DNA of 64,000 nt. Origin: Ptychomitrium polyphyllum (Eukaryota). Both the position numbers and the translations under genes were made by a program. This document shows, piece by piece, positions 9,420-53,817 of the stretch; the first letter of the stretch is position 1; every line of letters starts with the position of its first letter. Under the pieces are notes generated by a model. That model saw only the letters and a program-made list of their open reading frames with translations. It was not told the DNA's origin and did not search any database. Location of the stretch: the NCBI GenBank assembly GCA_973851085.1, contig OZ316775.1, positions 22,692,001-22,756,000 on the forward strand. Reading direction: 5' to 3'.

Positions 9420-9586
9420 GTGTTGACAAAAAGACTCTGTGAAAGGCCTATATTCACACAAGTGGTGACAAAAAGACTCTGTGAAAGGCCTATATTCACA
9501 CAAGTGGTGACAAAAAGACTCTGTGAAAGGCCTATATTCACACAAGTGGTGACAAAAAGACTCTGTGAAAGGCCTATATTCACACA
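9420..9586. repeat. Minisatellite: 4 copies of a 42-bp unit (GTGGTGACAAAAAGACTCTGTGAAAGGCCTATATTCACACAA)
   Basis: Directly visible with near-identical copies; it produces the repeating VVTKRLCERPIFTQ peptide in the ORF track. Confidence 0.95.
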
Positions 9587-17000: not shown

Positions 17001-17200
17001 GGTTTGTGTATATTATGATGGTATGTTGAGCTCCTTCCAATAAATGTCGCCATTCTTCAAACGCATCCACAATTGCAAGTAGTTCTTTATCATGTATATC
17101 ATAGTTGATTTTTGCCGCTGAGAACTTCCTTGAACGAAAGGCAAGAGGGTGAAGTCTCCCATCTTCATCATACTGTGAGAATACTGAGCCAAGCGCAAAA
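14060..17200 (-). mobile_element. 3' half of host Gypsy chromovirus 'H' (RNase H, integrase, chromodomain, 3' UTR, PPT, 3' LTR 14060-14672)
   Basis: Minus-strand ORFs carry the integrase Zn finger and DDE core (SMDFITDLP, IVSDRGPQF, TDGQT) and a chromodomain (EYEVKEILDSR...YLIHWQGY). The PPT AAATGGGGAGGTGA abuts an LTR starting TGTCAC at 14672. Confidence 0.9.
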
Positions 17201-18401
17201 TGTCGCGCACCTCTCTTTGAGGAGCGTTTGCAACACTAAGGGCACAAGGGGGACTCCGGAGTGATGTCCGAGACTTGTGGCGCCGATAGAGAAGGGAACC
17301 CAATGGGCCTAGCGCGGGAAAGATCACAAGGGGGAGAAACATCCTTGCCCACGTAGACCGGGGGCCCTAAGGGATATATCTTAAGCATTAGAGGAATCAC
17401 AAAGAGCTGATTCTACAATGCTAAAGATTGCTCAAATCGGACTCGGGAACTAAAAGTTATGGCATCTCAAAGTTGAGATTGGCCAAGGGGCTGTCCTAGA
17501 CTGTAGCAGCCCTACCCAGTGACTGTATTGGAGTGGAATAGTCCAAGGAGGGACTCCCCGGGAGTCTCAAACCTTGGGAGAGGCGTACCTCCCACAATAC
17601 TAACTCAAATCAAAACATTTGAGGACTCTCTTGGCATCTACGCAAAGAGTAGATGACGATAGAGTGGTCGCTTGATACATTCGGGCATCCAACAAGGAAG
17701 ATATGGCTCCCTAAAGGTACGCTGAGAGTCTCGGAGGCTTCCAGCGGCTAAGTCCCAAGGGAGATCGGGTGGTCTTCCAAAACTTTAGGTGTGTTTAGGT
17801 TCAGCCAGCTCCAGAGGGCTAGGGGGCCTGCCAAATCCCATAGAGAGTACTATAAGGGAGGGTTGATCTCCCTCCCCACTCCCCTAGTGTCCCGGTAGCG
17901 ACCAAGGGTGAGTCCCGGTTGGTGGAGCTAGTGTTGGGGCTTCACTACGGGGACTCCCACACCATTGTGAGTCGGTGGATGGCCAGTTTCACAAAGGAAA
18001 CTAGTGAGACCAAGAGGGCACGCTTGTTACCATTAAGTTGGTATGGTGTCTTCACATCGGCACCATGATGGCCTACGGTGATCTTAGGATCATATGGGGA
18101 TCATGAGTGGTGGTGAGGAGACACCACTAAGTGCGGTTAGGCCGTATGGAATGAGAATAACATCAAGTGAAGCCTTGGACATGAATGGAAGTCTGCACCT
18201 AACCATGGGCTACCAATCAATTGGGTGTCCTAAGAAAAATGGTAGAAAGACTTGAAAAATGAGAATGGGGGTTAACCATGTGCATGTGAGGGGGTGTACA
18301 GAGTTGACAAGCGTGACGCTTGCAAAGGTGCATGACAAGGGTTGCGACATTTGGTATCAGAGCAGGCTTTGAGTATCCAAGTGCTACGTTGCAAGGAGGC
18401 T

Positions 18402-21400
18402 ATGGATAAGGAGAAGGCCGGTGATGGCGGTGAGCCCGGGGCCTCTAAATGACTACGCACAAGGGTGAACAAAGACCCCGATCCGATTAATGAGGCTCCA
18501 TCCTTTGATTCCAATGAGCAAGGAAATGACATTGGAGTCACCAAGGAAGCTGAAGAAACTCAACAAGACAAAGCGTTGGGAGGTGGAGAGTACTCAAGAG
18601 CTAGGAATCTTGAATCACTTGAGGGCCTAGAAAGTCAGGATCCTGACTTGAGTTTTTGCATGAAAATGCTTGAGTTCATGGACGGTGTGAACCAAGAACT
18701 TAAGCGTGGCAAAGAAAAAAGGATCCGTCAAGAGAGGTTGATTGAACACTTGATGGTACAAGGTTCCAGGTCCTCATCTTCAACCAAGAAGTTGGCCAAG
18801 GTGAACATGCCAAGCACTTTTTCTGGGCAAGGTAAGGCCAGGAAGGTGAAGGAGTTTCTTTTGGAAATGGACAACTATTATGATGTCCAAAAGCCGGAAG
18901 AGGTGGACAAAGTGTCAATTGCGGTGACCTTTTTGAAAGACCGTGCTCTTCAATGGTGGACAAGTAGAAAGGAGCAAGAGTCGGAGTTGGTGGCGACTTT
19001 GTCTTGGATCGGTTTTAAAGAGATTTTGAGTGAACGCTTCACTCCGGAATACCAAGAGTTGAGGGAGGGCATGAACTTGGTGCAAATGAAGCACACCGGG
19101 TTTCTCAAGACTTATGTGCAAGATTTCAACGCCCAAATGAATGCCACATTCAAAATGGATGAGTTTTCAAAGAAATGCATCTTTTTGGGTGGGCTTCAAA
19201 AGTGGGTGGTGGACGCCTTGTTTAAATTCCCAAAGCTTCCGGAGGACGTGGCGGGAATCATTAAGATCGCGAAAAGAATTGAAGCCGACGGACCCGAAAG
19301 AAAATCAAGTGGTCCCTCTCAACAACGTGGATTGAGCCGAAATGTATCTCGCGGCGGAGAACGCAAGAAATTTGGCTTTGGAAACAAACACAAGGGACAA
19401 GTAGATGGAAGGGCCTACAACAAAGTGGACCATCATGAGAGAAAACCATTCAAATTGGGAGATAAGAGTGCTGAGGTGAAGCACAAGCGTTGCCACGGGT
19501 GTGGCAAGATTGGTCACTTCATTGCGGAGTGCCCCGATAAAAAGGTGAGTACCAAAGCTTGTCACACTTGTGTTGTGGATCACATTTTAGAAGGTGGATT
19601 TGTGGCCAAGGCTAGTAGCCTTAAGCCAAGGTCGAGTATCTTATACCTTGAGGCCCAAATAAATGGCAAAAATGTCTCATGTTTGATTGACACAAGGGCA
19701 ACGCACTCCTTCATGAGTCCCAAGCTAGCAAGGGAGTTGGGCTTGTCGGCTCAAAAAACTAGCAAGCCCATCAACGTGCGATTTGCAAAAGGCAAATCGT
19801 ACGAGACAAAAGAGGTGGTGTTGGATGTGGCCTTAAGTAGTGGGACATTGGAGTTGAAAGAAAGTTTTACACTATGTGAGATGGATGAGGTAGACTTCAT
19901 TTTAGGTGATACTTTTTTCGAAACTCATGTGGTGGATGTGAAGCAAAAGCCAGCACGGTTACTAGTGTGCTGTGATGGAAAGGAGACAATATTGAAGTTG
20001 ACTAGGACTCTTATGGTTGCGGGAGGAAAGTTGAACTTAGTCTCCTTAGAACAATTAGAAAATAACCAATTTGTGGTTGTCATGCGAATGGAGCAAGAAG
20101 AGGGGAATAGGCCAAGTGCCAAGGAGATTAGGACTATTTCCAAGTGCATTTAAAATGTACTAAGTGGTTACAAGGATGTGCTCACCAATGAGCAGCCCGC
20201 AAAGTCACCGCCAAAAAGAGAAGTGGATCACAAAATTGAGATGATATCGGGAACAGTGCCCCCTTCAAAGGCTCCATACCGGTTGAACCAAAAAGAGCTA
20301 GAGGAATTGAAGAAGCAATTGAATGACTTGTTGGAAAGAGGCTATGTTAGGCCAAGTAAGTCGCCAAATGGAGCACCGGTCCTCTTCGTGGACAAAAAAG
20401 ATAGCAAGCTCCGCATGTGTGTCGACTATAGAGCCTTGAATAAAGCCACTATCAAGAACAACTATCCTTTGCCTCGAATTGATGACCTCTTTGATAGATT
20501 GGCGAGAGCTAAATACTTTAGTCGGATAGACTTGAAGTCGGGCTACTATCAAATCCGCATTGCGGATGAAGATGTGCCAAAGACCGCATGCCGCACTAGG
20601 TATGGGTCCTATGAATTTTTGGTGATGCCATTCGGGTTGTGTAATGCTCCTTCGACGTTCACAACCCTCATGAATACCATCTTTCGAGAAGAGATGGATG
20701 ACTTTGTCATTATCTATATTGATGATATCTTGGTGTACTCCAAGTCGGCGGAAGAACATGCAAGGCACCTCAAAGTGGTGCTTCAAAAACTCAGGGACCA
20801 CAAACTTTATGCCAACGGAGAAAAGAGTGAGTTTGCTCAACTTGAGATTGAGTTCTTGGGCCATATAGTGACGAATGATGGAATCAAGCCGGACATAAGG
20901 AAGATAAAGGCAATTAGAGAGTAAAAGCAACCTTCTACACAAAAGGGGCTGAGATCATTTCTCGGCCTAGCAAATTATTACAAGAGGTTCATACACAACT
21001 TCTCCAAAATTTCTAGACCTTTGTCCGACTTGTTGAAGAAAGGAGCTAGCCAAGTATGGGATGGATTTTGTCACCAAGCTTTTCAAGAACTCAAGAATAA
21101 GTTGTCACAACCGCTGGTATTGAAGTTTCCCGAGTTTGAAAAGCCCTTTGAGGTCTACATGGATGCAAGTGACTTTGCCATTAGCGGAGTGCTCATGCAA
21201 GAAGGCATGCCAATTGCCTATGAGAGCAAGAAGTTGGATGGATGCCAAACAAGGTGGCCCACGCACGAGAAAGAACTCTTTACCGTAGTGCATTGTTTGA
21301 AAACATGGCGGCACTACTTGGGCCTACATAAAACCAAAGTCTACACGGACAACGTGTCCTTGAAGTACTTTGAGTCACAAGCACAAATGAGTGCAAAGCA

Positions 21401-23018
21401 ATTGAGGTGGCACGACACCTTAGCACTCATGAATGTGGATTTGATCCACAAGCCGGGGCGTGACAATGTAGTGCCGGATGCTCTAAGTAGGCGGGAGGAG
21501 TTGCAAGCGATGGGCACAACCCAAGTCCTGCGAGTAATATACAAGGGAGAAGGCAATTTGGAAAGGAAGATAAGAGAGGGGTACATGAAAGACTCCAAAG
21601 CACAAAGGCTTCTCGGTGAGCTTAAGAAAGGTAAAAAACTTAAGGAAATTAAGTTGGAAAAGGGATTCCTCAAAGTACAAACAAAGTCGGATGTATGTGC
21701 CTCAAGGAAAACTACGGTTGTCGGTTTTGAAAGAGGAACATGATAGTCCCATAGCCGGCCATAGAGGGAAAAAAACCACCATAGCGGCGGTGTCAAGAAG
21801 GTACTATTGGCCGGGTATGAAAGCGGACATCTCTAGCTTTGTAAAATCTTGTGTGAAGTGCCAACTCAATAGAGCCTCTTATAAAAAGCAAGCCGGTCTA
21901 CTACAACCTTTGCCAATTCCGCCGGGTCCATGGTATAGCGTGTCCATGGACTTCATTACAAGTCTTCCAGAATTGCAAGGGCATGACGCCATCTTTGTGA
22001 TGGTGGATCGCTTTGCAAGTTGGCGCATATGGTGCCAACTAGAGGAACCGTAACTGCACATGAGACCGCAAAGCTATTCCTTGATGCATGGTGGAAACAT
22101 CACGGGTTGCCGAGAGTGATTGTGTCGGACCGAGATCCAAAATTCACTAGTGCTTTTTGGAAACATTTCTTTAGGAAAGTTGGAACCAAATTGACGTTTA
22201 GCACTGCCTTCTATCCTCAAACGGATGGGCAAACGGAACAAGTGAATGGAGTCTTAAACCAATACTTGAGGAACTTTGTGAGTGCGGACCAGTGCGATTG
22301 GGTGGATTATGTGAGCCTTGCGGAATTCAATTACAATGCGGCCAATCATTCGGCGACAAAGCAGTCACCATTTAAGGTGGCCTATAGAGTAGAGCCACTC
22401 CAGCCTGCCGACTTAGCTCTTGAAGGTGCACATTCAACACTAGAGTTTAACCAAGATGATGAGGACTTGGCCAAAAAGCGAGAACAAATGTTGGAGAAGA
22501 CCAAGCTTTTGTTGGAAAAGGCACAAAAGCGGTACGAAAAACAAGTCAATGCCGAAAGACGTGAAGTGGAGTATGAAGTAGGCCAAAAGGTATTGTTGAA
22601 TGTGAAGAATTTTAGCTTGCCTGAAGGCCTCACTCCAAAGTTTGCGAGGCTGTTTTCTATTGTGGAGCGGGTGTTTAAAGATGTGTATAAGTTTGAACTA
22701 CCATCCAAAATCAAAGTGCATCCAATATTTCATGTCACTCTGCTTAAGCCATTCAGAAAGGATACCTTGTGGTCCAATCGCAAACAAGTGATTTGGCCAC
22801 CGCCAGAGTTGGTTGGCGACCACTTGGAATACAAAGTAGAAGGAATTCTCAAGTGTAGGCACCACAAGAAAATAGGAAATGAGTATTTGGTGAAGTGGAG
22901 AGGGTACCATGAAAAGGAAGCAACTTGGGTAGCAGCCAAGGACTTGGAAAATGCTAATGAAGTGGTGGAACGCTTTGAAAGGGATAGGAACTCCAACAAA
23001 AGACAACGTTGGCATTGA
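18402..23018 (+). pseudogene. Disrupted gag-pol of copy A
   Basis: ATG 18402 is in frame with the 18465 ORF but hits TGA at 18450. Further stops end at 20153 and 20924, frameshifts occur near 21660 and 22020, and the protease DTG motif reads DTR. Confidence 0.9.
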
Positions 23019-23027
23019 TGAGGACAT

Positions 23028-23718
23028 TGTAGTTGTTAGTTTGTCTTCTTCCAAAACCAAGCAAGCGGAGCAGTATAGGTGGGTTCAAACACGGGGAAAG
23101 ACCAGCAGTATGAAATTGATAATGTTAATGTGACAATTGATAACTCATTCATTCTTCACAATGCAATCCCTGCACAATCCTCTTAATCAATTCACCGTCT
23201 TGCGGCTAATCAATAATATTCCAGCATTCTACTAATGCTTAATCTCTCTCCAAAACACTCCGATGACAATTCTTTTTTTCAATTTCAGTCCTTTGATTCA
23301 AACAATACGATGTAGTATTCTCAATTCTTACAATCTTACTCCTTATCTCTTCAATTCACTTACTGAATTCAACTTCACAGTACACAAATCTCAATTACAA
23401 GTCCAATAACACTTGCTTCAATTCCAATTCTATTTAAAAAAAACACAAAAGAACAAATAAAATAGAGGTAGCTCCAAGCTTTACCCCGGCTTACGACAAT
23501 CACTGTCTGGCCTCGATTCTCTTTCTCATAAGGCCTATATACCCTTACGGTTATCCTACAGATATCAAAAGCTACACAATTAGTTCCATAACCGTAAATC
23601 TTGCCTTCCTGCTGACTAGTAGCTCTGAATTGGACTAACTAATCTTCAAAATTCCAAATTTTACTACTATATAACTAGTAAATGACTGCAAAAACTATTT
23701 ACATATTCTACATAGCCC
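23028..23718 (-). mobile_element. 691-bp LTR-like insertion (TGTAG...CTACA, 23028-23712, plus 6 extra nt) present only in copy A
   Basis: Copy B reads GAGGACAT|CAATCTC contiguously, while copy A has the insert between these bases. 5-bp terminal inverted repeats are typical of an LTR; orientation is inferred from the purine-rich GGGGCTA preceding the minus-strand TG. Confidence 0.75.
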
Positions 23719-25567
23719 CAATCTCTTTTAGTAGGGAGAGAGAGGCTTGTAGCAGTATCTTCTTCACATCATGTATTGGTTCTTTGACTTATGGCAATGA
23801 AGTTCAACTTTTGTGTGTGCAAAGAGAAGAGTATAAAATGACGTCCTAGTCTTGTGCTTGTGCTAAATTGATAGAAGAGGGGGAATAGACATGTGAAACC
23901 AAGTTGGGAAGGCCGAGTATTGGGAACCAAGGCTGGGAGGAGGAATGGTTAAAACCATAAAACCTCTTAGTCTCGGGCTTGTCCGGGCGAGGACAAGGTA
24001 ATGGCGCGTGCTCATAAAAGCACCACTCCTACAGACTAACAAAAGTTTTTGCATGGGAGTCATAAACCCATGTCTCAAACGAGATAGTGGGATCTAGGTT
24101 GGGTGGAACTTGACATTACCCCCGTGCAATCGAGTCGTGGAATAAAAGCCACCTTGGGTTTGCAACCAAGACAACTTGGTGGAGCATTGAGGTCCAGCCT
24201 AGTCAAAAAGGAAGAGTTAGGGCAGTGTAGCCTAACTAGGGAGTGTATTCTAAGAGGGTCTCAAAGTAGGTAGGTCTAGAGTAGTTTAGGGCCCCAAGAA
24301 TTTGGTCTAGGGTGCCTAAATAGACCACCTCCTAAACGACACCTTTGAGACTTTGCTAAAGATTTATGACTGCATTGTGGGGGCTGCACCTTGGATGAAA
24401 CACAATGCTGCACCACTAGAGGATGGCAACCTTGGAATTGGTGTGCCAACTACAAGTATAGTCGATGAGGGCATCGACTCCATTAAGATGGAGGTGAGTA
24501 TCGCGCACCTCTCCTTGAGGAGTGCTCGCAACACTAAGGGCACAAGGGGGACCCCGGAGTGACATCCGGGATTTGTGGCGCCGATAATGAGGGAACCGAG
24601 TGGGCCTAGCGTGGAAAGGACTCATAAGGGGAGAAACATCCTTGCCCATGTAGACCGAGGGCCACGAGGGATAGATGGTGGGCATTGGAAGAATCACAAA
24701 GAGCTGATTCTAGAATGCTAAAGATTGTCCAAATTAGACTAGGGAGCTAAAAGTTATGGCATCTCAAAGTTGGGGTTGCCAAAGGGCTGTTCTGGACTGT
24801 GGCAGCCCTACTCAGTGACTGTACTGGAGTGGGACAGTCCAGGGAGGGACTCCCCGGGAGTCCCAAACCTTGGGAGAGGCGTATCTCCCACAATACTAAC
24901 TCAAATTGGACGTTTGTAGAGTCAATCGGCATCTACGCAAAGAGTAGATGACGATAGAGTAGTTGCTTGATACATTCGGGCACCGGATGAGGAAGATATG
25001 GCTCCCTGAAGGTCCGCTGAGAGTCCCGGAGGCTTCCAACGGTTAAGTCCCAAGGTAGATCGGGTGGTCTTCCAAAACTCTAGGTGTGTTGGAGTTTAGT
25101 CAGCTCCAGAGGGCCACGGGGCTTGACGAATCCTACAAAGAGTGCTATAAGGGAGGGCTGGTCCCCCTTGCCACTCCCTTAGTGTCCCCGTAGAGACCAA
25201 GGGTGAGTCCCGGTTGGTGGAGCTAGTGATGGGGCTTCACCACGGGGACTCCCACACCATTGTGAGCCGGTGGACGGCCAGTTTCACAAAGGGAACTAGC
25301 ACGTTTCAAAGGATACGCTTGTTACCACTAAGTGCGGTTAGGCCATGTAGAATGGAAGTAACACCAAGTGAGGCCTTGGACATGAATGGAAGTCCGCACT
25401 TAACCATTGGCTACCAATCAATTGGGAATCCTAAGAGAAATAGTAAGGGGAATTGGAGACCAAGTCTGGGGCTTGGAGAGTGAAAATAAAACTTAATGAT
25501 GTGCATGTGGAGGTGTACAAGGTTGACGGGCGTGACATTGTTAAGGTGCATTATGAGGGTTGCAATA

Positions 25568-26792
25568 GTGCCCTTCTTCCATCTTGCAAATAAGAACGTC
25601 CTCCTTAGAAAGATGATGTTGGAGAGGTTTTTACTCTCATAGATGTTGCAAAGCGTCTTCCACGCTTCTGTTGGTCCTTTGCAAGAGATCATAAGAGCAA
25701 AGTTATCATCATCAAGGTTGGCGGCAAGGATGCCAAAAGCCTTCTTTTCACGACGTTGGAACTCCTTCCTCTCCTTTGCATCCGCCAACAATGGTGGAGT
25801 AGCTTCATTCTCATCTATGATGTCTCAAAGGTCCAAAGAAGACAACAAGAGCTCCATCCTAACCTTCCATTGATAGAAGTTCTCATCATAAAACTTTTAA
25901 ATGACCCTCAAACCTTCACCTTCACTTGAAGCCATACCTTAAGAAGAGAGGTAACAACTGTATCTCCAAACAAACTATTTTGTTGATTCCTATGCTTCTC
26001 ACAAGTTTTTACAACTATGAATCTATAGACAAGCCTTTCAATTCATTATGTCCTCTCAATAAGCACTCTTGTCAAAGAGTTAACAAAATAACAACACCAA
26101 GCACAATAAGTTGGTATTAGGGAGCTAGAATTCCAACAAAGATACTATCAAGGTCTTATCATCTCTCAAAGCAACTCACTATCCAAAGAGTTTCAACATC
26201 CACAACCTTATAAGAAATCAAAAACATCAAATTAAGCACCTATATGTGCAAAACCTCAAAAATAGGCATTTCTAATTTTATTTTCAATAACTACCAAGTG
26301 ATCTTGATCCTCACAAGAACAACAACTACAATCACTTCAAGCTACTTTAAAAGGCACAACTAAGTATGAGTGGGCCCATAATCTATTGAAAAATGCAACA
26401 AAGCTAGTACAACAAGCAAGAAGAGAGAGCAAAGTTGCAACAAGAAAAGTGTGGAGTAAGATGTCTCTCACTTCTAAAATTCCTTTACTTATACTTCGGA
26501 ATCATCTACCAAAGTGTGCCACTTGGCCGCCATGTTTTTTCCTCCGCTGATGAGTGCTATGTGGCAGCCAACCCTAGCTGCCGTAGTTGCCGTAGCCGCT
26601 GCCTTAATCCTAACGGCCGCCCTAATTCTAGCCGCCATATAAAACCCTTATTGTTTTTTCTTAAGCCTAACCTCCGTATCCTCTATGGCTTCTTCCTTGA
26701 CACCCCTTTGATTATTAGCAACCTATCAAGCTCTAGTTATATACAAAGAAACTTCAACTATGATCACTTTATATGTTCCACCCTTTTCAACA
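25568..26792 (-). mobile_element. 5' half of a Ty1/Copia element (5' LTR 26384-26792, PBS, 5' gag)
   Basis: LTR TGTTGAAAAGGG... matches 55643-56052 in inverted orientation. PBS reads GATTATGGGCCCAC. Gag remnants include ENFYQWKVRMELLLSSLDL and EKKAFGILAANL...EAWKTLCNIYE. Confidence 0.88.
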
Positions 26793-27043
26793 AAATTATA
26801 CCTCAAAATATTTTTAGATGGATTTGAGCAATTTTTGCATTACAACATTTTAGCAACGTCCAAAAGAATAAATGCCTAAAGTGTTACATTTAAAAGGAGC
26901 AGATGTAATATTCCAATTCTAATAGAAAGGTCCCTATAAAGTCTATAATAAAGACAATATATAAACCATGTTCACATTCAAAATTGTTATTTCAAAATGG
27001 CCAAATGCAATACCAAGGTTGTACATTGTTATGCCATAATTTG

Positions 27044-27074
27044 CATATACATATACATATACATATACATACAC

Positions 27075-27114
<40 letters not shown>
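27044..27114. repeat. Compound (CATATA)n/(TA)n microsatellite
   Basis: Directly visible. Confidence 0.95.
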
Positions 27115-27117
<3 letters not shown>

Positions 27118-40993: not shown

Positions 40994-42545
40994 TGTCATG
41001 ATAAAAGAGCCTTGCTTTGGGAAAACACTAGACCTTTGGCAACTATTAATCACTCAGTTAGTTGACAAGATGGTATTTACCCAGTTATTTAAGTGAAAGA
41101 GTTATTTAATTATGCTTTTTAAACTTTATAAAGATCACAACCCAAATCCAAATCATAATTACATACTGCCATCATAAACCTGTTTATAATTTTGCTCATA
41201 TTTCTTATTATAAGAGTTTAATGAACCTAATATTTTGATTCTATATTTTTAAGGCAGTTATAAATTTATGATAAACATTTCGTAACCATAGCTATTATAA
41301 GCATTGAAGACCATGCTTTCAAAGTTCTCACTTCCCACTGCCACAGCTTGTGGATCCCCTCTACTTTATTGCTTCATAACCTTTTCTTCTATCATAAGTC
41401 TAGACTTAAAACTTTATTCACACATTATTAATCTTACAATAAACACTTTATTAAAATATCAACCTTGGAAACTCCTTCAATCCTCTCTTATGGCCCAAAA
41501 TGTACAACCATAACTTTGCTATATACAGCTCTTAAAGTTTTGACTACAATTTTTCTTATATCTTCCACTATACAAGCCTTTAATTTCCAAATGTTTACAG
41601 TATCATCTTAAAGTAGTTAGGATACTACTTTTTAAAGTCTATCACCAAATTTTCAATACACAAAAAGTTATAAGCACCTAAAGCAGCTGCTCCCTAAAAT
41701 TCAAGGTTGTTGATTCAACTTTACTCAAACTAGAGCCATGATTGCATATTAATTCCAAACGGAGCATTTGATAACATTCTAAAGAATTAATAAAGAAAAA
41801 AAAAAATTCCAACAAAAATGAATTCAAATTAAGAAGTGTACTATGAGATATGGTCAAAGAAAGAGCTACTTTAAGTAACAAGTGGGAGAGACCAATAGAG
41901 AAGAAGAAGGTGGTGGTCAAACCGCCACATCCACCTCTTATCTCTCCACATCAGCCCCTAATTTCCTTTATCAAGCCCTTATCTAACCATATCTTTAAAT
42001 AAAAAACAATCTAAATCCTTTTCAGTTGTTTTTTTTTTTATTCTTTTTTTTTGTTGAAACTTCTAGATTCCAAACTACAAAGGAAGACAAAATCATTCCT
42101 TACAAATCTAAAGTGGATCACTAAAACTAAAATAAAAACAAGAAAACAAGAAAAAAATTGAAGTTTAATGAATATAAAGTCATTATTGAGGCAGAATCAA
42201 ACACCAAGCCACAAATTTGGTTGACTGGATAAAGTTCAGCTACAGAACCGGTTTGAGTTTTATTCTTGTTGGATTAATTGACTGGGATGGCAGCACTTGG
42301 CTTGGTACTGCTAATGAGAACAACAGGCAGGAAAATAACACAATCAATCGGCGCCTTCACCCTGAGCTAAATCAAGATGCAGTTCTACCTCCAAAACACT
42401 CAAAACCATAGTTTCACCACGATCCTTTTTACCTAACTTCTCTTTTCATCCTAATACTCCTTTCTAAAACACAATAAATCAAAATCCACAAAAATGATAT
42501 ATATTGAGCTAAATTTTAAGCCATATAATTATTTACAGCACAACA
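40994..42545. mobile_element. Probable long solo LTR (1552 bp) nested in element E RNase H
   Basis: TG...CA ends with a CCGT duplication on both sides; the host sequence resumes (CCGTCAAGC) right after; no coding domains inside. Confidence 0.75.
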
Positions 42546-44487
42546 CCGTCAAGCAAGGTGGAGTATGTCACTTTCCAGATTTGACTTTGTCATTTCCTAT
42601 TGATCGATAGCCTACAGGATAAGCTAGGTGCCTTATTTCAAAGATCTTATTTAGCTCCTCAACTTGGAGATGATATTTTGAATCAATAAATGATTATTTT
42701 ATTGAAGCCACAGAATCTTCAAATGAAAGCAACATTTATTACCACAACATCCCATCTCAACAAAATTTGGAGGACTTTAAAAAATGATGTATTTGTTTCA
42801 AATATGAGGAGGTGCTTCAAAAAAAACAAAGATCTTTTAAATAACAATAGAGCCTTTAAATTCTGAAAGGGCTTATTTTATTATAAAGGGCTTTTGTACC
42901 TACTTCCAGATCCTATGTGATTGAAGATGCTTCAAGCACGTCATGATTTTTCAACAGCAAGGCATTTTGGATCCAATAAAACAACAAAGTTGATTGCTAG
43001 AGACTATTGGTGGCTGCAAATGTGGAAATATGTGAAGAATTTTGTTTGATCATGCGACACTTGTGCAAAAGCCAAGGTACCAAGACACCAACCTCATGGT
43101 CTCCTCCATTTGTTTTGAGTGCCAAAGAGTCCATGGTTGTTATTGTCAATGGATTTTATCACAAACCTTCCAAACTCCAATTCTAAGGATTCTATTTTGG
43201 TAATGGTAGATTGATTTACCAAGATGGCACACTTCATTCCATGCAACAAGAGAGTAATGGGAGAAGAAACTACCAAGTTGTTCCTAAATTACGTCTACCG
43301 CATTCATGGATTACCAAATGATATTGTATCTAATTGAGGGCCGCAGTTCATTTCCAACTTTTGGAAGGTTTTATTCTAGCTGTTATGCGTGAAGATCAAC
43401 TTTTCTTCAGCACACCATTTACAGACTCATGGTCAAACCGAATGTGTGAATCAAATTTTGAAGCAGTATCTTTGTTGCAGCATAAAATACCAATAAGACA
43501 ACTGGATGGATCTCTTGCCATTGGCAAAAATTGCTTATATTAATATGATGCATTTTTCAACAATTCAAAATCCATTCTTTGCAAACTATGGCTACCATCC
43601 TCAAGTAGATCCATTTCAAATCAAGCTTGTTAAAAGTCCTGCAATAGAGGATTTTGCAACTCAACTTGCTAAAATCCATTAACAACTTGCTTTCCAATTA
43701 CAACAAGCTCAAGATTGTTACAAAACTAATGCAGATTGTCATTAGAAGGACCATCCAAAGTTCAAGGTTGGAGATAGCGTATGGTTCCTACGATGAAACA
43801 TATAAACAAAAAGGCCATTGAAGAAGCTGGACTATCAGAGGCTAGGACCGTTTGAAATTAGCAAATAGATAAATCCGGTCAGTTATTGCTTCAAACTTCT
43901 ACCAACCATGCAAATTCATCTAGTGTTCCATATATCGTTGTTGGAAACCTACAACAAGTCATGTATATCAGAAAAGGTTGTCCCTCCGCCTCTTTCGGTG
44001 GAAATCAATAATAAAATGGAATATGAAGTCAAAGAAATCTTAAATTCACGCATAAAAAATGGATATGTGGAGTACCTTACACATTGGCAAGGATATGGCA
44101 TCAATTACCAAACATGGAAACTTTCAATGAATGTAACAAATGCATCTAAGAAGGTACATGAATTTTATCAAAAATATCCTCAAAAACTAGATTAGTGGTG
44201 ACGTATTATTAATGGCCGTTAGCTATACAGAGAAGTTTTTTCCATAGACAAGTATAAGAAGGGAGGAAAGATATTCAAACCTCCAATTATATGCAGCATT
44301 ATTTCCGAAATAGATCATCTCTAGATTTTAGCTAGTATGTCAAATCTTTGTGTTATTATAGATATGCGTGAAGAGCAATTGGCCGTGCTTTCTTCAAAGA
44401 CAGCATTTGTTGAATCAACTCAACTTTCTTGACTTTCAATGTTGGAGGATCTAAGCCAAGATATGAGAGAGACATTGCAACAGTAAG

Positions 44488-46158
44488 TGTCAAATTAAAG
44501 GATCTGCCTTTAAGGCTCAAAGCACAATGATAGAGTTGGAAAACGAGGCTATCCAGTTACAGTAGGGACCATGCGACTGGACACCACAAGGAAAACGACC
44601 ATCAAATCAAGGTCTCTTATTACCTTCAAGTCCTACCTCTTGTTTTACATTTCCTATAAAAATTAAGTTGTTAAATGATGAAATAATTAGTGAGGCTCTA
44701 TTAGACACTAGTGCAACGGCATGTTTCATAGACAAGGATTTTGCAACCAAACATCACATAGTGCTTGTGAAGAAAAAATATCTCGCACCTATTGAAATTA
44801 TTGATAACAATCTCTTGCGTCTGGCAACGTTATTGAAGAAACTCAATCCTTGGAGGTTGTTTTAGGAGATCAGGCATCTAAGATTGTCTTCAACATCATT
44901 CAATGCCGAACGAATTCTATTGTCTTGGGCCTTCCTTGGTTTAAATTACATAATCCAGACATTGACTAGCGCTTACGGAGTGTGGTTTCAAAGAAAAGAC
45001 GTCAAGGTACAAGAAATCTTGAACCATCATTTTTTGGAGCTAAGGCATTTATGAAAGCGGCAAAAGATGAACCAATCTATGCCATTTATGCCACACCAAT
45101 GTCCAGCTCAACAATAGAGACTAATCAAAACATACCTCGTCAATATCAAGATTATAAAGATGTTTTTGGAAAGAAGAATGTGGACATGTTACTAAAGCAC
45201 TGGCCTTACAATTGTACCATTGAGTTGCAAGAAAGAGCCCAACCACCTTTTGAACCTATTTATAATTTATCACAAACTGAGTTGACTGCCTTGAAAGAAT
45301 ATATTGATGAAAACCTTAAAAAAGGTTTCATTCAACATTCTAAATCACCTGCTGGAGCACCCATTCTATATATAAAGAAGAAAGATGCATCATTACGTAT
45401 GTGCATGGACTATTGAGGCCTCAATAAAGTAACAAAAAAGAATCGCTATCCATTACCATTAATCTTAAGACTCCTACAACAACTTGGCCAAGCAAAGATA
45501 TTCATCAAAATTGATCTTAGAGGAGCCTACAATCTTGTACGCATCAAAGAAGGAGACGAATGGAAGACAACTTTTTGATCTAAATATGGTCATTTTGAAT
45601 ACAATGTCATGCCTTTTGGCCATACTAATGCTCCAGCAGTCTTCCAATATATGATGAATGATATCTTCCATGAACATCTGGATGATTTTGTAGTAATCCA
45701 CTTAAATGACATTTTGATATATTCAAAGGATGAACAAGACTACAAATGTCATGTGCGACTAATCGTAGAAAAATTATGCCAGCGAGGATTATATGCCAAA
45801 TTGATGAAGTGCCTTTGCCATAAATCCTCGGTTGAATTTTTAGGCTACATCATTTGCAAAAGAGGAATCCATATGAATAAGCAAAAAATAAGCAGAGTCA
45901 TGGAGTGGAGTACGCCAAGAACAATTTGAGATGTTCAATGCTTCTTGGAAGTTTCAAACTTCTACAGAATATTCATCAAGAATTATTCCTAGATTGCGGC
46001 ACCATCAACACGTCTTACGGGGAAGCAAAAATCCATTTGGGATAAAGAGGCGGAAAAAGCATTTCAAACTCTTACAAAGTCATTCACGTCGGCTCCAATT
46101 CTTATTCATCCAAATCCATAAAAGCCTTTATATTTGCAAGCGGATGCCTCAAATTTTG
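44488..46158 (+). mobile_element. 5' part of host Gypsy 'H' (end of gag, PR, RT, start of RNase H), fused to the 3' UTR of element E
   Basis: [22 protein letters not shown] and MPFGHTNAPAVFQ motifs. It stops at ...GATGCCTCAAATTTTG, exactly where the minus strand at 17200 resumes (TTTTGCGCTTGG). Confidence 0.88.
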
Positions 46159-49100
46159 TGTCGCAACCATTGTAATGCACCTTAACAAGCGTTACGCGCG
46201 TCAACCCTGTACAAACTTTCACATGCACATGGTTAACCCCCATTATCACTTTTCAAGTCTTTCTACCACTTTTTTTTAGGACACCCAATTGATTGGTAGC
46301 CAATGGTTAAGTGCGGACTTCCATTCATGTCCAAGGCCTCACTTGGTGTTACTTCCATTCTACATGGCTTAACCGCACTTAGTGGTAACAAGCGTATCCT
46401 TTGAAACGTGCTAGTTCCCTTTGTGAAACTGGCCGTCCACCGGCTCACAATGGTGTGGGAGTCCCCGTGGTGAAGCCCCATCATTAGCTCCACCAACCGG
46501 GACTCACCCTTGGTCTCTACGGGGACACTAAGGGAGTGGCAAGGGGGACCAGCCCTCCCTTATAGCACTCTTTGTAGGATTCGTCAAGCCCCGTGGCCCT
46601 CTGGAGCTGACTAAACTCCAACACACTTAGAGTTTTGGAAGACCACCCGATCTACCTTGGGACTTAACCGTTGGAAGCCTCCGGGACTCTCAGCGGACCT
46701 TCAGGGAGCCATATCTTCCTCATCCGGTGTCCGAATGTATCAAGCAACTACTCTATCGTCATCTACTCTTTGCGTAGATGCCGATTGACTCTACAAACGT
46801 CCAATTTGAGTTAGTATTGTGGGAGATACGCCTCTCCCAAGGTTTGGGACTCCCGGGGAGTCCCTCCCTGGACTGTCCCACTCCAGTACAGTCACTGAGT
46901 AGGGCTGCCACAGTCCAGAACAGCCCTTTGGCAACCCCAACTTTGAGATGCCATAACTTTTAGCTCCCTAGTCTAATTTGGACAATCTTTAGCATTCTAG
47001 AATCAGCTCTTTGTGATTCTTCCAATGCCCACCATCTATCCCTCGTGGCCCTCGGTCTACATGGGCAAGGATGTTTCTCCCCTTATGAGTCCTTTCCACG
47101 CTAGGCCCACTCGGTTCCCTCATTATCGGCGCCACAAATCCCGGATGTCACTCCGGGGTCCCCCTTGTGCCCTTAGTGTTGCGAGCACTCCTCAAGGAGA
47201 GGTGCGCGATACTCACCTCCATCTTAATGGAGTCGATGCCCTCATCGACTATACTTGTAGTTGGCACACCAATTCCAAGGTTGCCATCCTCTAGTGGTGC
47301 AGCATTGTGTTTCATCCAAGGTGCAGCCCCCACAATGCAGTCATAAATCTTTAGCAAAGTCTCAAAGGTGTCGTTTAGGAGGTGGTCTATTTAGGCACCC
47401 TAGACCAAATTCTTGGGGCCCTAAACTACTCTAGACCTACCTACTTTGAGACCCTCTTGGAATACACTCCCTAGTTAGGCTACACTGCCCTAACTCTTCC
47501 TTTTTGACTAGGCTGGACCTCAATGCTCCACCAAGTTGTCTTGGTTGCAAACCTAAGGTGGCTTTTATTCCACGACTCGATTGCACGGGGGTAATGTCAA
47601 GTTCCACCCAACCTAGATCCCACTATCTCGTTTGAGACATGGGTTTATGACTCCCATGCAAAAACTTTTGTTAGTCTGTAGGAGTGGTGCTTTTATGAGC
47701 ACGCACCATTACCTTGTCCTCGCCCGGACAAGCCCGAGACTAAGAGGTTTTATGGTTTTAACCATTCCTCCTTCCAGCCTTGGTTCCCAATACTCGGCCT
47801 TCCCAACTTGGTTTCACATGTCTATTCCCCCTCTTCTACCAATTTAGCACAAGCACAAGACTAGGACGTCATTTTATACTCTTCTCTTTGCACACACAAA
47901 AGTTGAACTTCATTGCCATAAGTCAAAGAACCAATACATGATGTGAAGAAGATACTGCTACAAGCCTCTCTCCCCCTACTAAAAGAGATTGATGTCCTCA
48001 TCAATGCCAACGTTGTCTTTTGTTGGAGTTCTTATTCCTTTCAAAGCGTTCCACCACTTCATTGGCATTTCCCAAGTCCTTGGCTGCTACCCAAGTTGCT
48101 TCCTTTTCATGGTACCCTCTCCACTTCACCAAATACTCATTTCCTATTTTCTTGTGGTGCCTACACTTGAGAATTCCTTCTACTTTGTATTCCAAGTGGT
48201 CGCCAACCAACTCTGGCGGTGGCCAAATCACTTGTTTGCGATTGGACCACAAGGTATCCTTTCTGAATGGCTTAAGCAGAGAGACATGAAATATTGGGTG
48301 CACTTTGATTTTGGATGGTAGTTCAAACTTATACACATCTTTAAACACCCGCTCCACAATAGAAAACAGCCTCGCAAACTTTGGAGTGAGGCCTTCAGGC
48401 AAGCTAAAATTCTTCACATTCAACAATACCTTTTGGCCTACTTCATACTCCACTTCACGTCTTTCGGCATTGACTTGTTTTTCGTACCGCTTTTGTGCCT
48501 TTTCCAACAAAAGCTTGGTCTTCTCCAACATTTGTTCTCGCTTTTTGGCCAAGTCCTCATCATCTTGGTTAAACTCTAGTGTTGAATGTGCACCTTCAAG
48601 AGCTAAGTCGGCAGGCTGGAGTGGCTCTACTCTATAGGCCACCTTAAATGGTGACTGCTTTGTCGCCGAATGATTGGCCGCATTGTAATTGAATTCCGCA
48701 AGGCTCACATAATCCACCCAATCGCACTGGTCCGCACTCACAAAGTTCCTCAAGTATTGGTTTAAGACTCCATTCACTTGTTCCGTTTGCCCATCCGTTT
48801 GAGGATAGAAGGCAGTGCTAAACGTCAATTTGGTTCCAACTTTCCTAAAGAAATGTTTCCAAAAAGCACTAGTGAATTTTGGATCTCGGTCCGACACAAT
48901 CACTCTCGGCAACCCGTGATGTTTCCACCATGCATCAAGGAATAGCTTTGCGGTCTCATGTGCAGTTACGGTTCCTCTAGTTGGCACCATATGCGCCAAC
49001 TTGCAAAGCGATCCACCATCACAAAGATGGCGTCATGCCCTTGCAATTCTGGAAGACTTGTAATGAAGTCCATGGACACGCTATACCATGGACCCGGCGG

Positions 49101-52100
49101 AATTGGCAAAGGTTGTAGTAGACCGGCTTGCTTTTTATAAGAGGCTCTATTGAGTTGGCACTTCACACAAGATTTTACAAAGCTAGAGATGTCCGCTTTC
49201 ATACCCGGCCAATAGTACCTTCTTGACACCGCCGCTATGGTGGTTTTTTTCCCTCTATGGCCGGCTATGGGACTATCATGTTCCTCTTTCAAAACCGACA
49301 ACCGTAGTTTTCCTTGAGGCACATACATCCGACTTTGTTTGTACTTTGAGGAATCCCTTTTCCAACTTAATTTCCTTAAGTTTTTTACCTTTCTTAAGCT
49401 CACCGAGAAGCCTTTGTGCTTTGGAGTCTTTCATGTACCCCTCTCTTATCTTCCTTTCCAAATTGCCTTCTCCCTTGTATATTACTCGCAGGACTTGGGT
49501 TGTGCCCATCGCTTGCAACTCCTCCCGCCTACTTAGAGCATCCGGCACTACATTGTCACGCCCCGGCTTGTGGATCAAATCCACATTCATGAGTGCTAAG
49601 GTGTCGTGCCACCTCAATTGCTTTGCACTCATTTGTGCTTGTGACTCAAAGTACTTCAAGGACACGTTGTCCGTGTAGACTTTGGTTTTATGTAGGCCCA
49701 AGTAGTGCCGCCATGTTTTCAAACAATGCACTACGGTAAAGAGTTCTTTCTCGTGCGTGGGCCACCTTGTTTGGCATCCATCCAACTTCTTGCTCTCATA
49801 GGCAATTGGCATGCCTTCTTGCATGAGCACTCCGCTAATGGCAAAGTCACTTGCATCCATGTAGACCTCAAAGGGCTTTTCAAACTCGGGAAACTTCAAT
49901 ACCAGCGGTTGTGACAACTTATTCTTGAGTTCTTGAAAAGCTTGGTGACAAAATCCATCCCATACTTGGCTAGCTCCTTTCTTCAACAAGTCGGACAAAG
50001 GTCTAGAAATTTTGGAGAAGTTGTGTATGAACCTCTTGTAATAATTTGCTAGGCCGAGAAATGATCTCAGCCCCTTTTGTGTAGAAGGTTGCTTTTACTC
50101 TCTAATTGCCTTTATCTTCCTTATGTCCGGCTTGATTCCATCATTCGTCACTATATGGCCCAAGAACTCAATCTCAAGTTGAGCAAACTCACTCTTTTCT
50201 CCGTTGGCATAAAGTTTGTGGTCCCTGAGTTTTTGAAGCACCACTTTGAGGTGCCTTGCATGTTCTTCCGCCGACTTGGAGTACACCAAGATATCATCAA
50301 TATAGATAATGACAAAGTCATCCATCTCTTCTCGAAAGATGGTATTCATGAGGGTTGTGAACGTCGAAGGAGCATTACACAACCCGAATGGCATCACCAA
50401 AAATTCATAGGACCCATACCTAGTGCGGCATGCGGTCTTTGGCACATCTTCATCCGCAATGCGGATTTGATAGTAGCCCGACTTCAAGTCTATCCGACTA
50501 AAGTATTTAGCTCTCGCCAATCTATCAAAGAGGTCATCAATTCGAGGCAAAGGATAGTTGTTCTTGATAGTGGCTTTATTCAAGGCTCTATAGTCGACAC
50601 ACATGCGGAGCTTGCTATCTTTTTTGTCCACGAAGAGGACCGGTGCTCCATTTGGCGACTTACTTGGCCTAACATAGCCTCTTTCCAACAAGTCATTCAA
50701 TTGCTTCTTCAATTCCTCTAGCTCTTTTTGGTTCAACCGGTATGGAGCCTTTGAAGGGGGCACTGTTCCCGATATCATCTCAATTTTGTGATCCACTTCT
50801 CTTTTTGGCGGTGACTTTGCGGGCTGCTCATTGGTGAGCACATCCTTGTAACCACTTAGTACATTTTAAATGCACTTGGAAATAGTCCTAATCTCCTTGG
50901 CACTTGGCCTATTCCCCTCTTCTTGCTCCATTCGCATGACAACCACAAATTGGTTATTTTCTAATTGTTCTAAGGAGACTAAGTTCAACTTTCCTCCCGC
51001 AACCATAAGAGTCCTAGTCAACTTCAATATTGTCTCCTTTCCATCACAGCACACTAGTAACCGTGCTGGCTTTTGCTTCACATCCACCACATGAGTTTCG
51101 AAAAAAGTATCACCTAAAATGAAGTCTACCTCATCCATCTCACATAGTGTAAAACTTTCTTTCAACTCCAATGTCCCACTACTTAAGGCCACATCCAACA
51201 CCACCTCTTTTGTCTCGTACGATTTGCCTTTTGCAAATCGCACGTTGATGGGCTTGCTAGTTTTTTGAGCCGACAAGCCCAACTCCCTTGCTAGCTTGGG
51301 ACTCATGAAGGAGTGCGTTGCCCTTGTGTCAATCAAACATGAGACATTTTTGCCATTTATTTGGGCCTCAAGGTATAAGATACTCGACCTTGGCTTAAGG
51401 CTACTAGCCTTGGCCACAAATCCACCTTCTAAAATGTGATCCACAACACAAGTGTGACAAGCTTTGGTACTCACCTTTTTATCGGGGCACTCCGCAATGA
51501 AGTGACCAATCTTGCCACACCCGTGGCAACGCTTGTGCTTCACCTCAGCACTCTTATCTCCCAATTTGAATGGTTTTCTCTCATGATGGTCCACTTTGTT
51601 GTAGGCCCTTCCATCTACTTGTCCCTTGTGTTTGTTTCCAAAGCCAAATTTCTTGCGTTCTCCGCCGCGAGATACATTTCGGCTCAATCCACGTTGTTGA
51701 GAGGGACCACTTGATTTTCTTTCGGGTCCGTCAGCTTCAATTCTTTTCGCGATCTTAATGATTCCCGCCACGTCCTCCGGAAGCTTTGGGAATTTAAACA
51801 AGGCGTCCACCACCCACTTTTGAAGCCCACCCAAAAAGATGCATTTCTTTGAAAACTCATCCATTTTGAATGTGGCATTCATTTGGGCGTTGAAATCTTG
51901 CACATAAGTCTTGAGAAACCCGGTGTGCTTCATTTGCACCAAGTTCATGCCCTCCCTCAACTCTTGGTATTCCGGAGTGAAGCGTTCACTCAAAATCTCT
52001 TTAAAACCGATCCAAGACAAAGTCGCCACCAACTCCGACTCTTGCTCCTTTCTACTTGTCCACCATTGAAGAGCACGGTCTTTCAAAAAGGTCACCGCAA

Positions 52101-53817
52101 TTGACACTTTGTCCACCTCTTCCGGCTTTTGGACATCATAATAGTTGTCCATTTCCAAAAGAAACTCCTTCACCTTCCTGGCCTTACCTTGCCCAGAAAA
52201 AGTGCTTGGCATGTTCACCTTGGCCAACTTCTTGGTTGAAGATGAGGACCTGGAACCTTGTACCATCAAGTGTTCAATCAACCTCTCTTGACGGATCCTT
52301 TTTTCTTTGCCACGCTTAAGTTCTTGGTTCACACCGTCCATGAACTCAAGCATTTTCATGCAAAAACTCAAGTCAGGATCCTGACTTTCTAGGCCCTCAA
52401 GTGATTCAAGATTCCTAGCTCTTGAGTACTCTCCACCTCCCAACGCTTTGTCTTGTTGAGTTTCTTCAGCTTCCTTGGTGACTCCAATGTCATTTCCTTG
52501 CTCATTGGAATCAAAGGATGGAGCCTCATTAATCGGATCGGGGTCTTTGTTCACCCTTGTGCGTAGTCATTTAGAGGCCCCGGGCTCACCGCCATCACCG
52601 GCCTTCTCCTTATCCATAGCCTCCTTGCAACGTAGCACTTGGATACTCAAAGCCTGCTCTGATACCAAATGTCGCAACCCTTGTCATGCACCTTTGCAAG
52701 CGTCACGCTTGTCAACTCTGTACACCCCCTCACATGCACATGGTTAACCCCCATTCTCATTTTTCAAGTCTTTCTACCATTTTTCTTAGGACACCCAATT
52801 GATTGGTAGCCCATGGTTAGGTGCAGACTTCCATTCATGTCCAAGGCTTCACTTGATGTTATTCTCATTCCATACGGCCTAACCGCACTTAGTGGTGTCT
52901 CCTCACCACCACTCATGATCCCCATATGATCCTAAGATCACCGTAGGCCATCATGGTGCCGATGTGAAGACACCATACCAACTTAATGGTAACAAGCGTG
53001 CCCTCTTGGTCTCACTAGTTTCCTTTGTGAAACTGGCCATCCACCGACTCACAATGGTGTGGGAGTCCCCGTAGTGAAGCCCCAACACTAGCTCCACCAA
53101 CCGGGACTCACCCTTGGTCGCTACCGGGACACTAGGGGAGTGGGGAGGGAGATCAACCCTCCCTTATAGTACTCTCTATGGGATTTGGCAGGCCCCCTAG
53201 CCCTCTGGAGCTGGCTGAACCTAAACACACCTAAAGTTTTGGAAGACCACCCGATCTCCCTTGGGACTTAGCCGCTGGAAGCCTCCGAGACTCTCAGCGT
53301 ACCTTTAGGGAGCCATATCTTCCTTGTTGGATGCCCGAATGTATCAAGCGACCACTCTATCGTCATCTACTCTTTGCGTAGATGCCAAGAGAGTCCTCAA
53401 ATGTTTTGATTTGAGTTAGTATTGTGGGAGGTACGCCTCTCCCAAGGTTTGAGACTCCCGGGGAGTCCCTCCTTAGACTATTCCACTCCAATACAGTCAC
53501 TGGGTAGGGCTGCCACAGCCCAGAACAGCTCCTTGGCAACCTCAACTTTGGGATGCCATAACTTTTAGTTCCCGAGTCCGATTTGAGCAATTTTTAGCAA
53601 TCTGAAATCAGCTCTTTGTAATTCCTCCAATGCTTATGATTTATCCCTTGTGACTCTCGGTCTACATGGGCAAGTATGTTTCTTTTCCTAGGGGTCCTTC
53701 TCATGCTAGGCCCACTCGGTTTCTCTCACTATCGGCGTCACAAGTCCCGGGCATCACTCCGAGGTCCCCCTTGTGCCCTTAGTGTTGCGGGCATTCCTCA
53801 TGGAGAGGTACACGACA
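46159..53817 (-). mobile_element. Full-length but disabled Ty3/Gypsy chromovirus, copy 'B' (5' LTR 52670-53817, 3' LTR 46159-47211)
   Basis: Reverse complement of copy A with essentially identical ORF translations and the same stops and frameshifts, PBS and PPT. Confidence 0.95.

What the first reader, a model, noticed from the sequence alone, without database searches (positions are those of the whole stretch)
17196..53817. Swapped target-site duplication reveals a 21-36 kb inversion between two inverted retrotransposon copies
Seen: copy A is preceded by CAAAA (17196-17200), but its own 3' flank is GTGCC. The matching duplication (TTTTG, 46154-46158) flanks the 3' LTR of copy B instead. The host Gypsy RNase H reads ...GATGCCTCAAATTTTG on + up to 46158 and continues TTTTGCGCTTGGCTCAG on - from 17200; the uninterrupted motif GATTTTGCGCTTGG is visible at ~40745. 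One insertion site is therefore split 29 kb apart in opposite orientations. Inference: the segment between A and B was flipped by ectopic recombination between the inverted repeats, or the assembler mis-oriented it.
Basis: partly seen in the sequence, partly recalled or inferred. Interest (0 to 1): 0.85.

Follow-up and report, generated by a model that had tools for sequence, protein, structure and literature searches.

The report
Moss inversion between homogenised retrotransposon twins
In a moss genome, two opposite-facing dead retrotransposons share a near-identical 7-kb core but keep unrelated tips, and two older elements around them are cut into halves that face opposite ways, so the 21 kb between them, in which no host gene was found, was likely flipped by a repair event that also copied one element into the other.

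Summary
Observation confirmed and extended. In a Ceratodon moss (PLDζ 99% to C. purpureus), the TSD TTTTG and its host Gypsy RNase H are split 29 kb apart in opposite orientations. The halves overlap by exactly 5 bp on two intact paralogues. A Copia is split the same way, which is a second witness.

It is not a simple crossover. The reciprocal flanks do not match (GTGCC/TAACT) and about 2.9 kb of the Copia is missing. A and B share a 7,230-bp core at 99.75% identity, in two strata (1/5,176 and 16/2,015 differences), while their tips differ by 17–22%. Contigs from one sequenced sample (possibly the source) hold A's tip-to-core junction and B's allele at single-copy depth and the core at about double, so the duplication looks real.

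Best reading: a real inversion (about 85%) by crossover-associated gap repair or long conversion, then a second recent 5-kb homogenisation. No spanning read tested the orientation. No host gene was found inside.

The class is known (Galileo 2z3, L1/Alu inversions, yeast flip/flop region), and this scan noted similar swapped-TSD inversions on other DNA. The long homogenised core is the twist.

The parts
17196..17200 (-). TSD copy 1 (TTTTG on -, CAAAA on +), flanking A's 5' end
46154..46158 (+). TSD copy 2 (TTTTG), flanking B's 3' end
44485..46158 (+). Host Gypsy H1, first half (gag remnant, RT, start of RNase H); no 5' LTR seen
14036..17200 (-). Host Gypsy H1, second half (rest of RNase H, integrase, chromodomain-bearing end, 3' LTR); outer limit approximate
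17201..25567 (+). Copy A: chromodomain Gypsy (5' LTR 17201-18349, PBS 18352-18363, gag-PR-RT-RH-IN-chromo 18453-23018 with 2 in-frame stops and frameshift(s), 3' LTR 24499-25567)
46159..53817 (-). Copy B (5' LTR 53817-52670, 3' LTR 47211-46159)
17201..17505 (+). A 5' tip, 17.4% (53/304) from B's 5' tip; switch to shared core from 17506
   Evidence: exact contig 17450-17535 across the switch in X2 and X3
17545..22720 (+). Young stratum of the shared core: 1 difference in 5,176 bp; identical runs of 1,741 and 3,434 bp (partner 53474-48299)
22721..25426 (+). Older stratum of the shared core: 16 differences in 2,015 bp, 691-bp insertion excluded (partner 48298-46284)
23028..23718 (.). 691-bp insertion only in A: LTR-like TGTAG...CTACA (23028-23712) plus 6 bp, no TSD
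   Evidence: the form without it is in paralogous contigs
25427..25567 (+). A 3' tip, 21.5% (26/121) from B's 3' tip and foreign to the LTR body it ends
46159..46283 (-). B 3' tip, attached to TSD copy 2
53514..53817 (-). B 5' tip, preceded by TAACT of LTR Z
53818..54811 (-). Older LTR Z of the same family (994 bp); its 3' ~155 bp were not found in the window
25568..26792 (-). Copia first half: 5' LTR 26792-26384 (outer flank AATTT), putative PBS, gag to about codon 121, cut by A's 3' end
   Evidence: exact contig across the A/Copia junction, 25534-25660, in X2
54812..56052 (+). Copia second half: end of RT and RNase H (about residues 1085-1351 of P0146), PPT, 3' LTR 55643-56052 (outer flank AATTC)
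25568..46158 (.). Minimal inverted segment, 20,591 bp: retrotransposon remnants and AT-rich DNA; no host gene found
37504..38648 (+). Solo LTR C of the A/B family inside H2 gag (flanks CTTA / CTTAT); shows that this family leaves solo LTRs; used as outgroup

Best explanation
Two opposite-facing Gypsy copies share a 7.2-kb core but keep different tips, and two older elements are split across them, so the 21 kb between them was likely inverted by one homologous repair event that likely also copied the core, followed by a likely second, recent 5.2-kb conversion. In detail: the element inserted in host H1 (TSD TTTTG) survives only as two tips, A's first ~305 bp and probably B's last ~125 bp. The tips do not overlap in LTR coordinates and add up to less than one LTR, so the element was most simply a solo LTR (inferred). 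A break in it was probably repaired from the inverted full-length neighbour nested in the Copia: one end invaded that neighbour's 5' LTR, the other its 3' LTR, and the 7.2 kb between was copied in. Resolution as a crossover flipped the interval (inferred). The neighbour was already a composite of more than one element, made by deletion(s) that removed the Copia middle and the end of LTR Z (inferred). The new inverted repeat later recombined again and reset 5.2 kb to near identity. At 9.4e-9 per site per year (a P. patens rate, borrowed) the strata date to about 420 and 10 thousand years.
For: Shown: split TSD with a 5-bp in-register overlap on two paralogues. Copia LTRs face opposite ways (88.6% alike; flanks AATTT/AATTC, chance of >=4/5 about 0.04); gag lies on - and RT/RH on +; 22 of 23 full-length relatives hit both halves and none hits a middle part in the window. 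Core 7,230 bp with 18 substitutions; tips 17.4% and 21.5% apart; strata differ at Fisher p=1.7e-8. Run contigs: A-tip exact contigs at depth 452/497/547 (X2) and 43/43/65/43.5 (X3); B allele at 17544 at 542 and 56.7; core exact contigs at 1191 and 1302 (X2), 90.4 (X3), and 1113 (X2). The core looks foreign to the H1 insertion: A's 5' tip is 14.2% from the shared 3' LTR, shares a minority state with it at 1 of 25 informative sites, and fails a relative-rate test against C (35 vs 12, p=0.001). The core looks composite: its LTRs are 12-13% apart, yet its ORFs have 2 in-frame stops where 10-13 would be expected at that age (p=0.003 to 0.0002). Gap repair with the two ends invading different repeats, copying ~17 kb, or resolving as a crossover, is described in yeast (PMC5741057, passages).
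Against: Orientation is untested: no laid piece spans a copy. The solo-LTR step is not shown. B's 3' tip fits the shared LTR almost as well as A's tip lineage (8 changes; Poisson 0.046 vs 0.138). A's 3' tip is clearly foreign to its LTR body (branch 14.9% vs 4-5%), so this model needs an older mosaic junction within ~26 bp of the new one. The relative-rate test is not significant with Z as outgroup (26 vs 19, p=0.37). Depth is a weak copy measure: two other single-copy-looking contigs had depth 260 and 360, and paralogous contigs with 8-10 differences reached 661-1176. S2 may be the source sample. The Copia halves could be two elements of one family.
Confidence: 0.45

Rival explanations
1. Real inversion by an ordinary crossover between full-length inverted elements, plus a separate deletion; afterwards B acted as donor and overwrote 7.2 kb of A by one-way conversion, then 5.2 kb again.
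For: Needs only two conversion junctions, both in A. A's 3' tip is foreign to its LTR body while B's 3' tip is compatible with it (branches 14.9% vs 6.5% against 4-5%). All evidence for a flip applies equally.
Against: A's 5' tip and B's 3' LTR would be sister LTRs of one insertion, yet they are 14.2% apart and share 1 of 25 informative states. It needs a 7-kb tract across copies about 15% apart; plant inter-element LTR tracts were mostly 100-1000 bp (PMC7251063, passages; LTRs only).
Confidence: 0.3
2. The homogenised core is real but arose without crossover; the assembler mis-phased the two copies across the 5.2-kb near-identical stretch, so the inversion is an assembly error.
For: Flipping within the core would rejoin both split elements; the longest identical run is 3,434 bp; no laid piece spans it; the assembly method is unknown.
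Against: The assembly keeps both copies' private bases, and those checked are in run contigs. The window has no N. Accurate reads over ~4 kb would bridge both identical runs (inference). In yeast, long-read assemblies of a similar 4-kb inverted repeat agreed between laboratories (PMC9731477 section 10).
Confidence: 0.13
3. One simple crossover between two near-identical inverted copies, with reciprocal TSD exchange.
For: One TSD pair is exchanged and the copies are inverted.
Against: The second pair is not exchanged (GTGCC vs TAACT). A5 matches B5 and A3 matches B3, not A5-B3. The tips are 17-22% apart.
Confidence: 0.02
4. The shared core is an assembly artefact: one copy's sequence was pasted into both sites.
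For: 5.2 kb with a single difference between otherwise divergent elements.
Against: An exact contig crosses A's tip-to-core switch in both runs, B's allele at 17544 has its own contig, and core contigs have about twice the depth of tip contigs.
Confidence: 0.03

Closest known systems
Galileo-generated inversion 2z3 of Drosophila buzzatii (Delprat et al. 2009, PMC2775673; passages read)
   Same: Two copies of one transposon family in opposite orientation at the breakpoints, with a TSD split between them.
   Different: There both TSD pairs are exchanged and the copies are reciprocal chimeras with one crossover window. Here only one pair is exchanged, the other site has a deletion, and both copies carry the same 7.2-kb core. 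Here the elements are LTR retrotransposons, not DNA transposons.
Retrotransposon recombination-mediated inversions (L1-RMI, Alu-RMI) between human and chimpanzee (PMC2603318; passages read)
   Same: Inverted retroelements, non-matching TSDs used to tell the derived orientation, some events with deletions.
   Different: Non-LTR elements, average inverted sizes 0.8-14 kb in their table; the term 'gene conversion' does not occur in that text. The ancestral state there came from outgroups and PCR, which could not be done here.
Saccharomyces chromosome XIV flip/flop region (Salzberg et al. 2022, PMC9731477; abstract and section 10 read)
   Same: A ~24-kb segment between a several-kb inverted repeat that is repeatedly homogenised; one arm can gain a mobile-element insertion.
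   Different: There the arms are essential sporulation genes and re-inversion is shown across strains. Here the arms are dead retrotransposons, the segment has no detected gene, and recurrence or polymorphism is untested.
Ty-mediated gap-repair gene conversion in S. cerevisiae (PMC5741057; passages read)
   Same: Two broken ends invade different repeats and copy a long stretch; gap repair can resolve as a crossover.
   Different: Selected laboratory events between chromosomes. Rebuilding of a solo LTR into a full element is recalled from older yeast work and was not in the passages seen.

Membership tests
TE-mediated inversion by ectopic recombination (exchanged-TSD type) | Two homologous copies in opposite orientation at the breakpoints | tested here: met
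TE-mediated inversion by ectopic recombination (exchanged-TSD type) | TSD of one insertion split between the two copies | tested here: met
TE-mediated inversion by ectopic recombination (exchanged-TSD type) | Second TSD pair also exchanged | tested here: not met
   GTGCC vs TAACT; no partner found in the window; ~960 codons of Copia missing
TE-mediated inversion by ectopic recombination (exchanged-TSD type) | Copies are reciprocal chimeras with one crossover window | tested here: not met
   Both are chimeric but share one core, with switches near both ends
TE-mediated inversion by ectopic recombination (exchanged-TSD type) | Opposite orientation in another genome, or reads spanning a copy | not testable with these tools
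   No genome held; only short contig pieces lay on the copies
Homogenised inverted repeat / flip-flop region | Arms more alike than their history predicts, in more than one round | tested here: met
   Two strata, 1/5176 vs 16/2015, p=1.7e-8; tips 17-22% apart
Homogenised inverted repeat / flip-flop region | Both orientations recur among strains | not testable with these tools
   Only one sample (S2) held a large share of the stretch
Ty3/Gypsy chromovirus (copies A and B) | gag-PR-RT-RH-IN order with C-terminal chromodomain, LTRs, PBS | tested here: met
   Pfam order, LTRs and PBS; clade within chromoviruses not determined
Tcn1 clade of chromoviruses | Phylogenetic placement; mostly self-priming without a tRNA PBS (PMC6317226 passages) | tested here: inconclusive
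   No tree against reference clades was made; A and B carry a tRNA-Met-type PBS (motif recognised from memory), which is atypical for Tcn1
Ty1/Copia (split witness element) | Copia gag at the N-terminus, RT then RNase H at the C-terminus, LTR pair | tested here: met
   PF14223; 70% identity to full-length Copia polyprotein P0146

The most novel reading that the evidence does not exclude
A solo LTR was regrown into a full-length retrotransposon by gap repair from an inverted neighbour. That one event flipped 21 kb and built a 7-kb inverted repeat of dead retrotransposon DNA that keeps re-homogenising and toggles the segment among Ceratodon accessions, like the yeast flip/flop region but with no gene under selection.
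Probability: 0.15. Interest if true: 0.55.

Novelty: new variant of a known kind. Interest (0 to 1): 0.32.

Why it matters
Transposon-mediated inversions with exchanged TSDs are well known, and no host gene was found in this one, so a phenotype is unlikely. Its value is mechanistic. It records two rounds of multi-kilobase sequence exchange between dead plant LTR elements whose tips are 17-22% apart, far longer than the 100-1000 bp tracts reported for plant LTRs. It shows that LTR-pair dating fails at such a locus: the LTRs within each copy are 12-16% apart while the two copies are 99.75% alike. It is a small, PCR-testable locus in a model moss for asking whether retrotransposon pairs act as self-maintaining inversion switches.

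Tried and rejected
No whole genome was held, so family-wide trees and comparison with R40/GG1 were not possible.

The run search found 3 runs, 2 of them one sample. X1 held a small share and gave only paralogous pieces. All were contigs and none spanned a copy.

The 691-bp insertion had no exact cover in X2 or X3, only a ~94% paralogue in X3. The tool filters records and read 87% of X2, so this is inconclusive.

The metagenome scan gave 1 locus, L001, over 30% from every LTR here, so it was no use as an outgroup.

The multiple alignment inflated B's 3'-tip distances (16.9% against 12.1% pairwise); the pairwise values are used.

A window search for the rest of LTR Z and for partners of GTGCC, TAACT and CTCGT beside an LTR end found none (three loose pattern matches were not at family LTRs).

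In the Pfam scan of 20 frames, 2 hit a family (the Copia gag and a chromodomain/SH3 remnant), both retrotransposon. 12 of the 20 lay inside the inverted segment. I scanned a hand-picked subset of the frames of 70 aa or more listed, and a gene with short exons could be missed.

Exact look-up of the 61115-63415 ORF found nothing.

Earlier findings by place and by sequence: none.

Ten paper searches listed no paper on this locus or on a homogenised inverted LTR-element pair in a moss, judged from listings and abstract starts. No supplements were opened.

Rejected: coincidence of the TSD, a simple single crossover, and copy-paste by the assembler.

Full report
Setting. The window (no N, 39.6% GC) is from a moss of the genus Ceratodon: the PLDζ frame at 334-2160 is 571/578 identical to C. 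purpureus KC19_10G042100 and 92% to P. patens. No whole genome was held.

Observation. Every stated motif is in place. The host Gypsy H1 stops at 46158 on + and resumes at 17200 on -. Aligned separately to two uninterrupted paralogues, the halves overlap by exactly the 5-bp TSD (H2 1152/1148, H3 1542/1538) and have the same distances to them. So they are halves of one insertion site, not of different subfamilies.

Second witness. A's 3' end abuts a Copia gag on - (PF14223), preceded by a putative PBS and an LTR at 26792-26384. Beyond B and the truncated LTR Z, Copia RT/RNase H runs on + from 54812, followed by a PPT and an LTR at 55643-56052. The two LTRs are 88.6% alike and face opposite ways; the outer flanks are AATTT and AATTC (chance of 4/5 or better about 0.04). 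Of 43 homologues, the 23 full-length ones were used: 22 hit both halves, the same protein (P0146) is best for both, and about residues 122-1084 match nothing in the window. That the halves are one element is inferred. The inverted segment is at least 20,591 bp and at most 36,617 bp. No host gene was found in it (subset of frames scanned).

The reciprocal site. A's 3' flank is GTGCC and B's 5' flank is TAACT. No partner for either, nor the last ~155 bp of Z, was found in the window. At least one deletion of about 2.9 kb or more accompanies or precedes the flip.

A and B. Both are chromodomain Gypsy elements. They share a core from 17506 to 25426 (7,230 bp without a 691-bp insertion in A) with 18 substitutions. 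The tips differ by 53/304 and 26/121. The core has two strata: 1 difference in 5,176 bp and 16 in 2,015 bp (p=1.7e-8), about 10 and 420 thousand years at 9.4e-9 (rate from PMC11871058, passage, set for P. patens). Within each copy the two LTRs are 12-16% apart, but the coding region has 2 in-frame stops against 10-13 expected at that age. So the core joins LTRs from different elements. Ordinary retrotransposition gives identical LTRs (established knowledge), so it would not make two such copies; DNA-level copying is inferred.

Raw-data check. Three runs were listed; X2 and X3 are one sample and may be the source. On 17051-17950, exact contigs over A's tip had depth 452 and 497 (X2) and 43, 43 and 65 (X3). 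An exact 86-bp contig, 17450-17535, crosses the tip-to-core switch in both runs (547; 43.5). A contig with B's base at 17544 has depth 542 and 56.7. Exact core contigs have 1191 and 1302 (X2) and 90.4 (X3). In one search an exact core contig had 1113 and the exact A/Copia junction contig 521. This fits two core copies and one of each tip. Against: the tool warns that depth is no copy number; two other exact flank contigs had 260 and 360; four paralogous contigs with 8-10 differences had 661-1176; only the longest pieces were shown (16 of 1,706). X3 had no cover at 17171-17200 and 17591-17620, where X2 had. The longest identical runs are 1,741 and 3,434 bp.

Who donated the core. A's 5' tip and the shared 3' LTR do not look like sister LTRs: 14.2% apart, 1 of 25 informative sites shared, relative rate 35 vs 12 with C (p=0.001), though 26 vs 19 with Z (p=0.37). 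So the element at the TTTTG site seems to survive only as tips of ~305 and ~125 bp. They do not overlap in LTR coordinates, which a broken solo LTR requires; solo LTR C shows that the family leaves such remnants. Against this, A's 3' tip is foreign to its LTR body (p about 1e-6) while B's fits either origin, which favours B as one-way donor. I give the solo-LTR gap-repair model 0.45 and the B-donor model 0.30. A real inversion by any route is about 0.85, and mis-orientation by the assembler about 0.13.

Comparison. Exchanged TSDs at inverted copies are the published hallmark of ectopic inversion (PMC2775673, passages; PMC2603318, passages). This case meets two of the four sequence criteria and fails the reciprocal-TSD and single-crossover ones. 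The homogenised arms resemble the yeast flip/flop region (PMC9731477, abstract and section 10), and the proposed repair resembles Ty-mediated gap repair (PMC5741057, passages). Plant LTR conversion tracts were mostly 100-1000 bp and shorter between elements (PMC7251063, passages). The C. purpureus genome paper notes autosomal structural variation between R40 and GG1, and the word 'inversion' does not occur in its main text (PMC8245031, passages). Clade notes come from PMC6317226 (passages). Ten searches listed no report of this locus (see Tried and rejected); supplements were not read. The scan's own notes list four swapped-TSD inversions in other genomes (unchecked).

Verdict. A real split insertion site with a second witness; most likely a true inversion with long, repeated homogenisation of the flanking retrotransposons and an extra deletion. 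It is a known class with an unusual anatomy and no detected gene. Novelty: new variant of a known kind. Interest 0.32.

Noticed in passing
window 334-4127 (+): Phospholipase D zeta gene, 571/578 identical to C. purpureus KC19_10G042100; it lies in two long open frames, apparently with a single intron.
   Followed up: partly
window 61115-63415 (+): 766-aa open frame with a kinase domain; the best named C. purpureus matches are only 60% and 56% identical, so it may be accession-specific or unannotated in R40/GG1.
   Followed up: partly
window 23028-23718: LTR-like insertion with 6 extra bases and no TSD; could be a captured cDNA piece rather than an integrase product (speculation). Not seen exactly in runs X2/X3 (inconclusive).
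   Followed up: partly
window 46119-46121 and 40712-40714: H1 and H2 share an in-frame stop at the same position just before the split site although they are ~83% alike.
   Followed up: no
window ~44485: H2's 3' region joins H1's gag with neither H2's 3' LTR nor H1's 5' LTR: probably another deletion.
   Followed up: no
window 40994-42545 and 39083-39647: Two insertions in H2 (about 1.55 kb and 0.56 kb) with no match elsewhere in the window.
   Followed up: no
window 26384-26792 (-) and 55643-56052 (+): Both Copia LTRs end in TA rather than CA; the 5' one is followed by a motif that resembles a half-tRNA-Met primer site (recalled, not tested).
   Followed up: no
window 32433-35311 (-): Decayed chromodomain Gypsy remnant inside the inverted segment.
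   Followed up: partly
window 24980, 25083, 25226, 25341 and B partners: All four A/B differences in the shared 3' LTR are G-to-A changes in B relative to the other LTRs.
   Followed up: no
window 9416-9586: 42-bp tandem repeat, 4.1 copies, 99% match.
   Followed up: no
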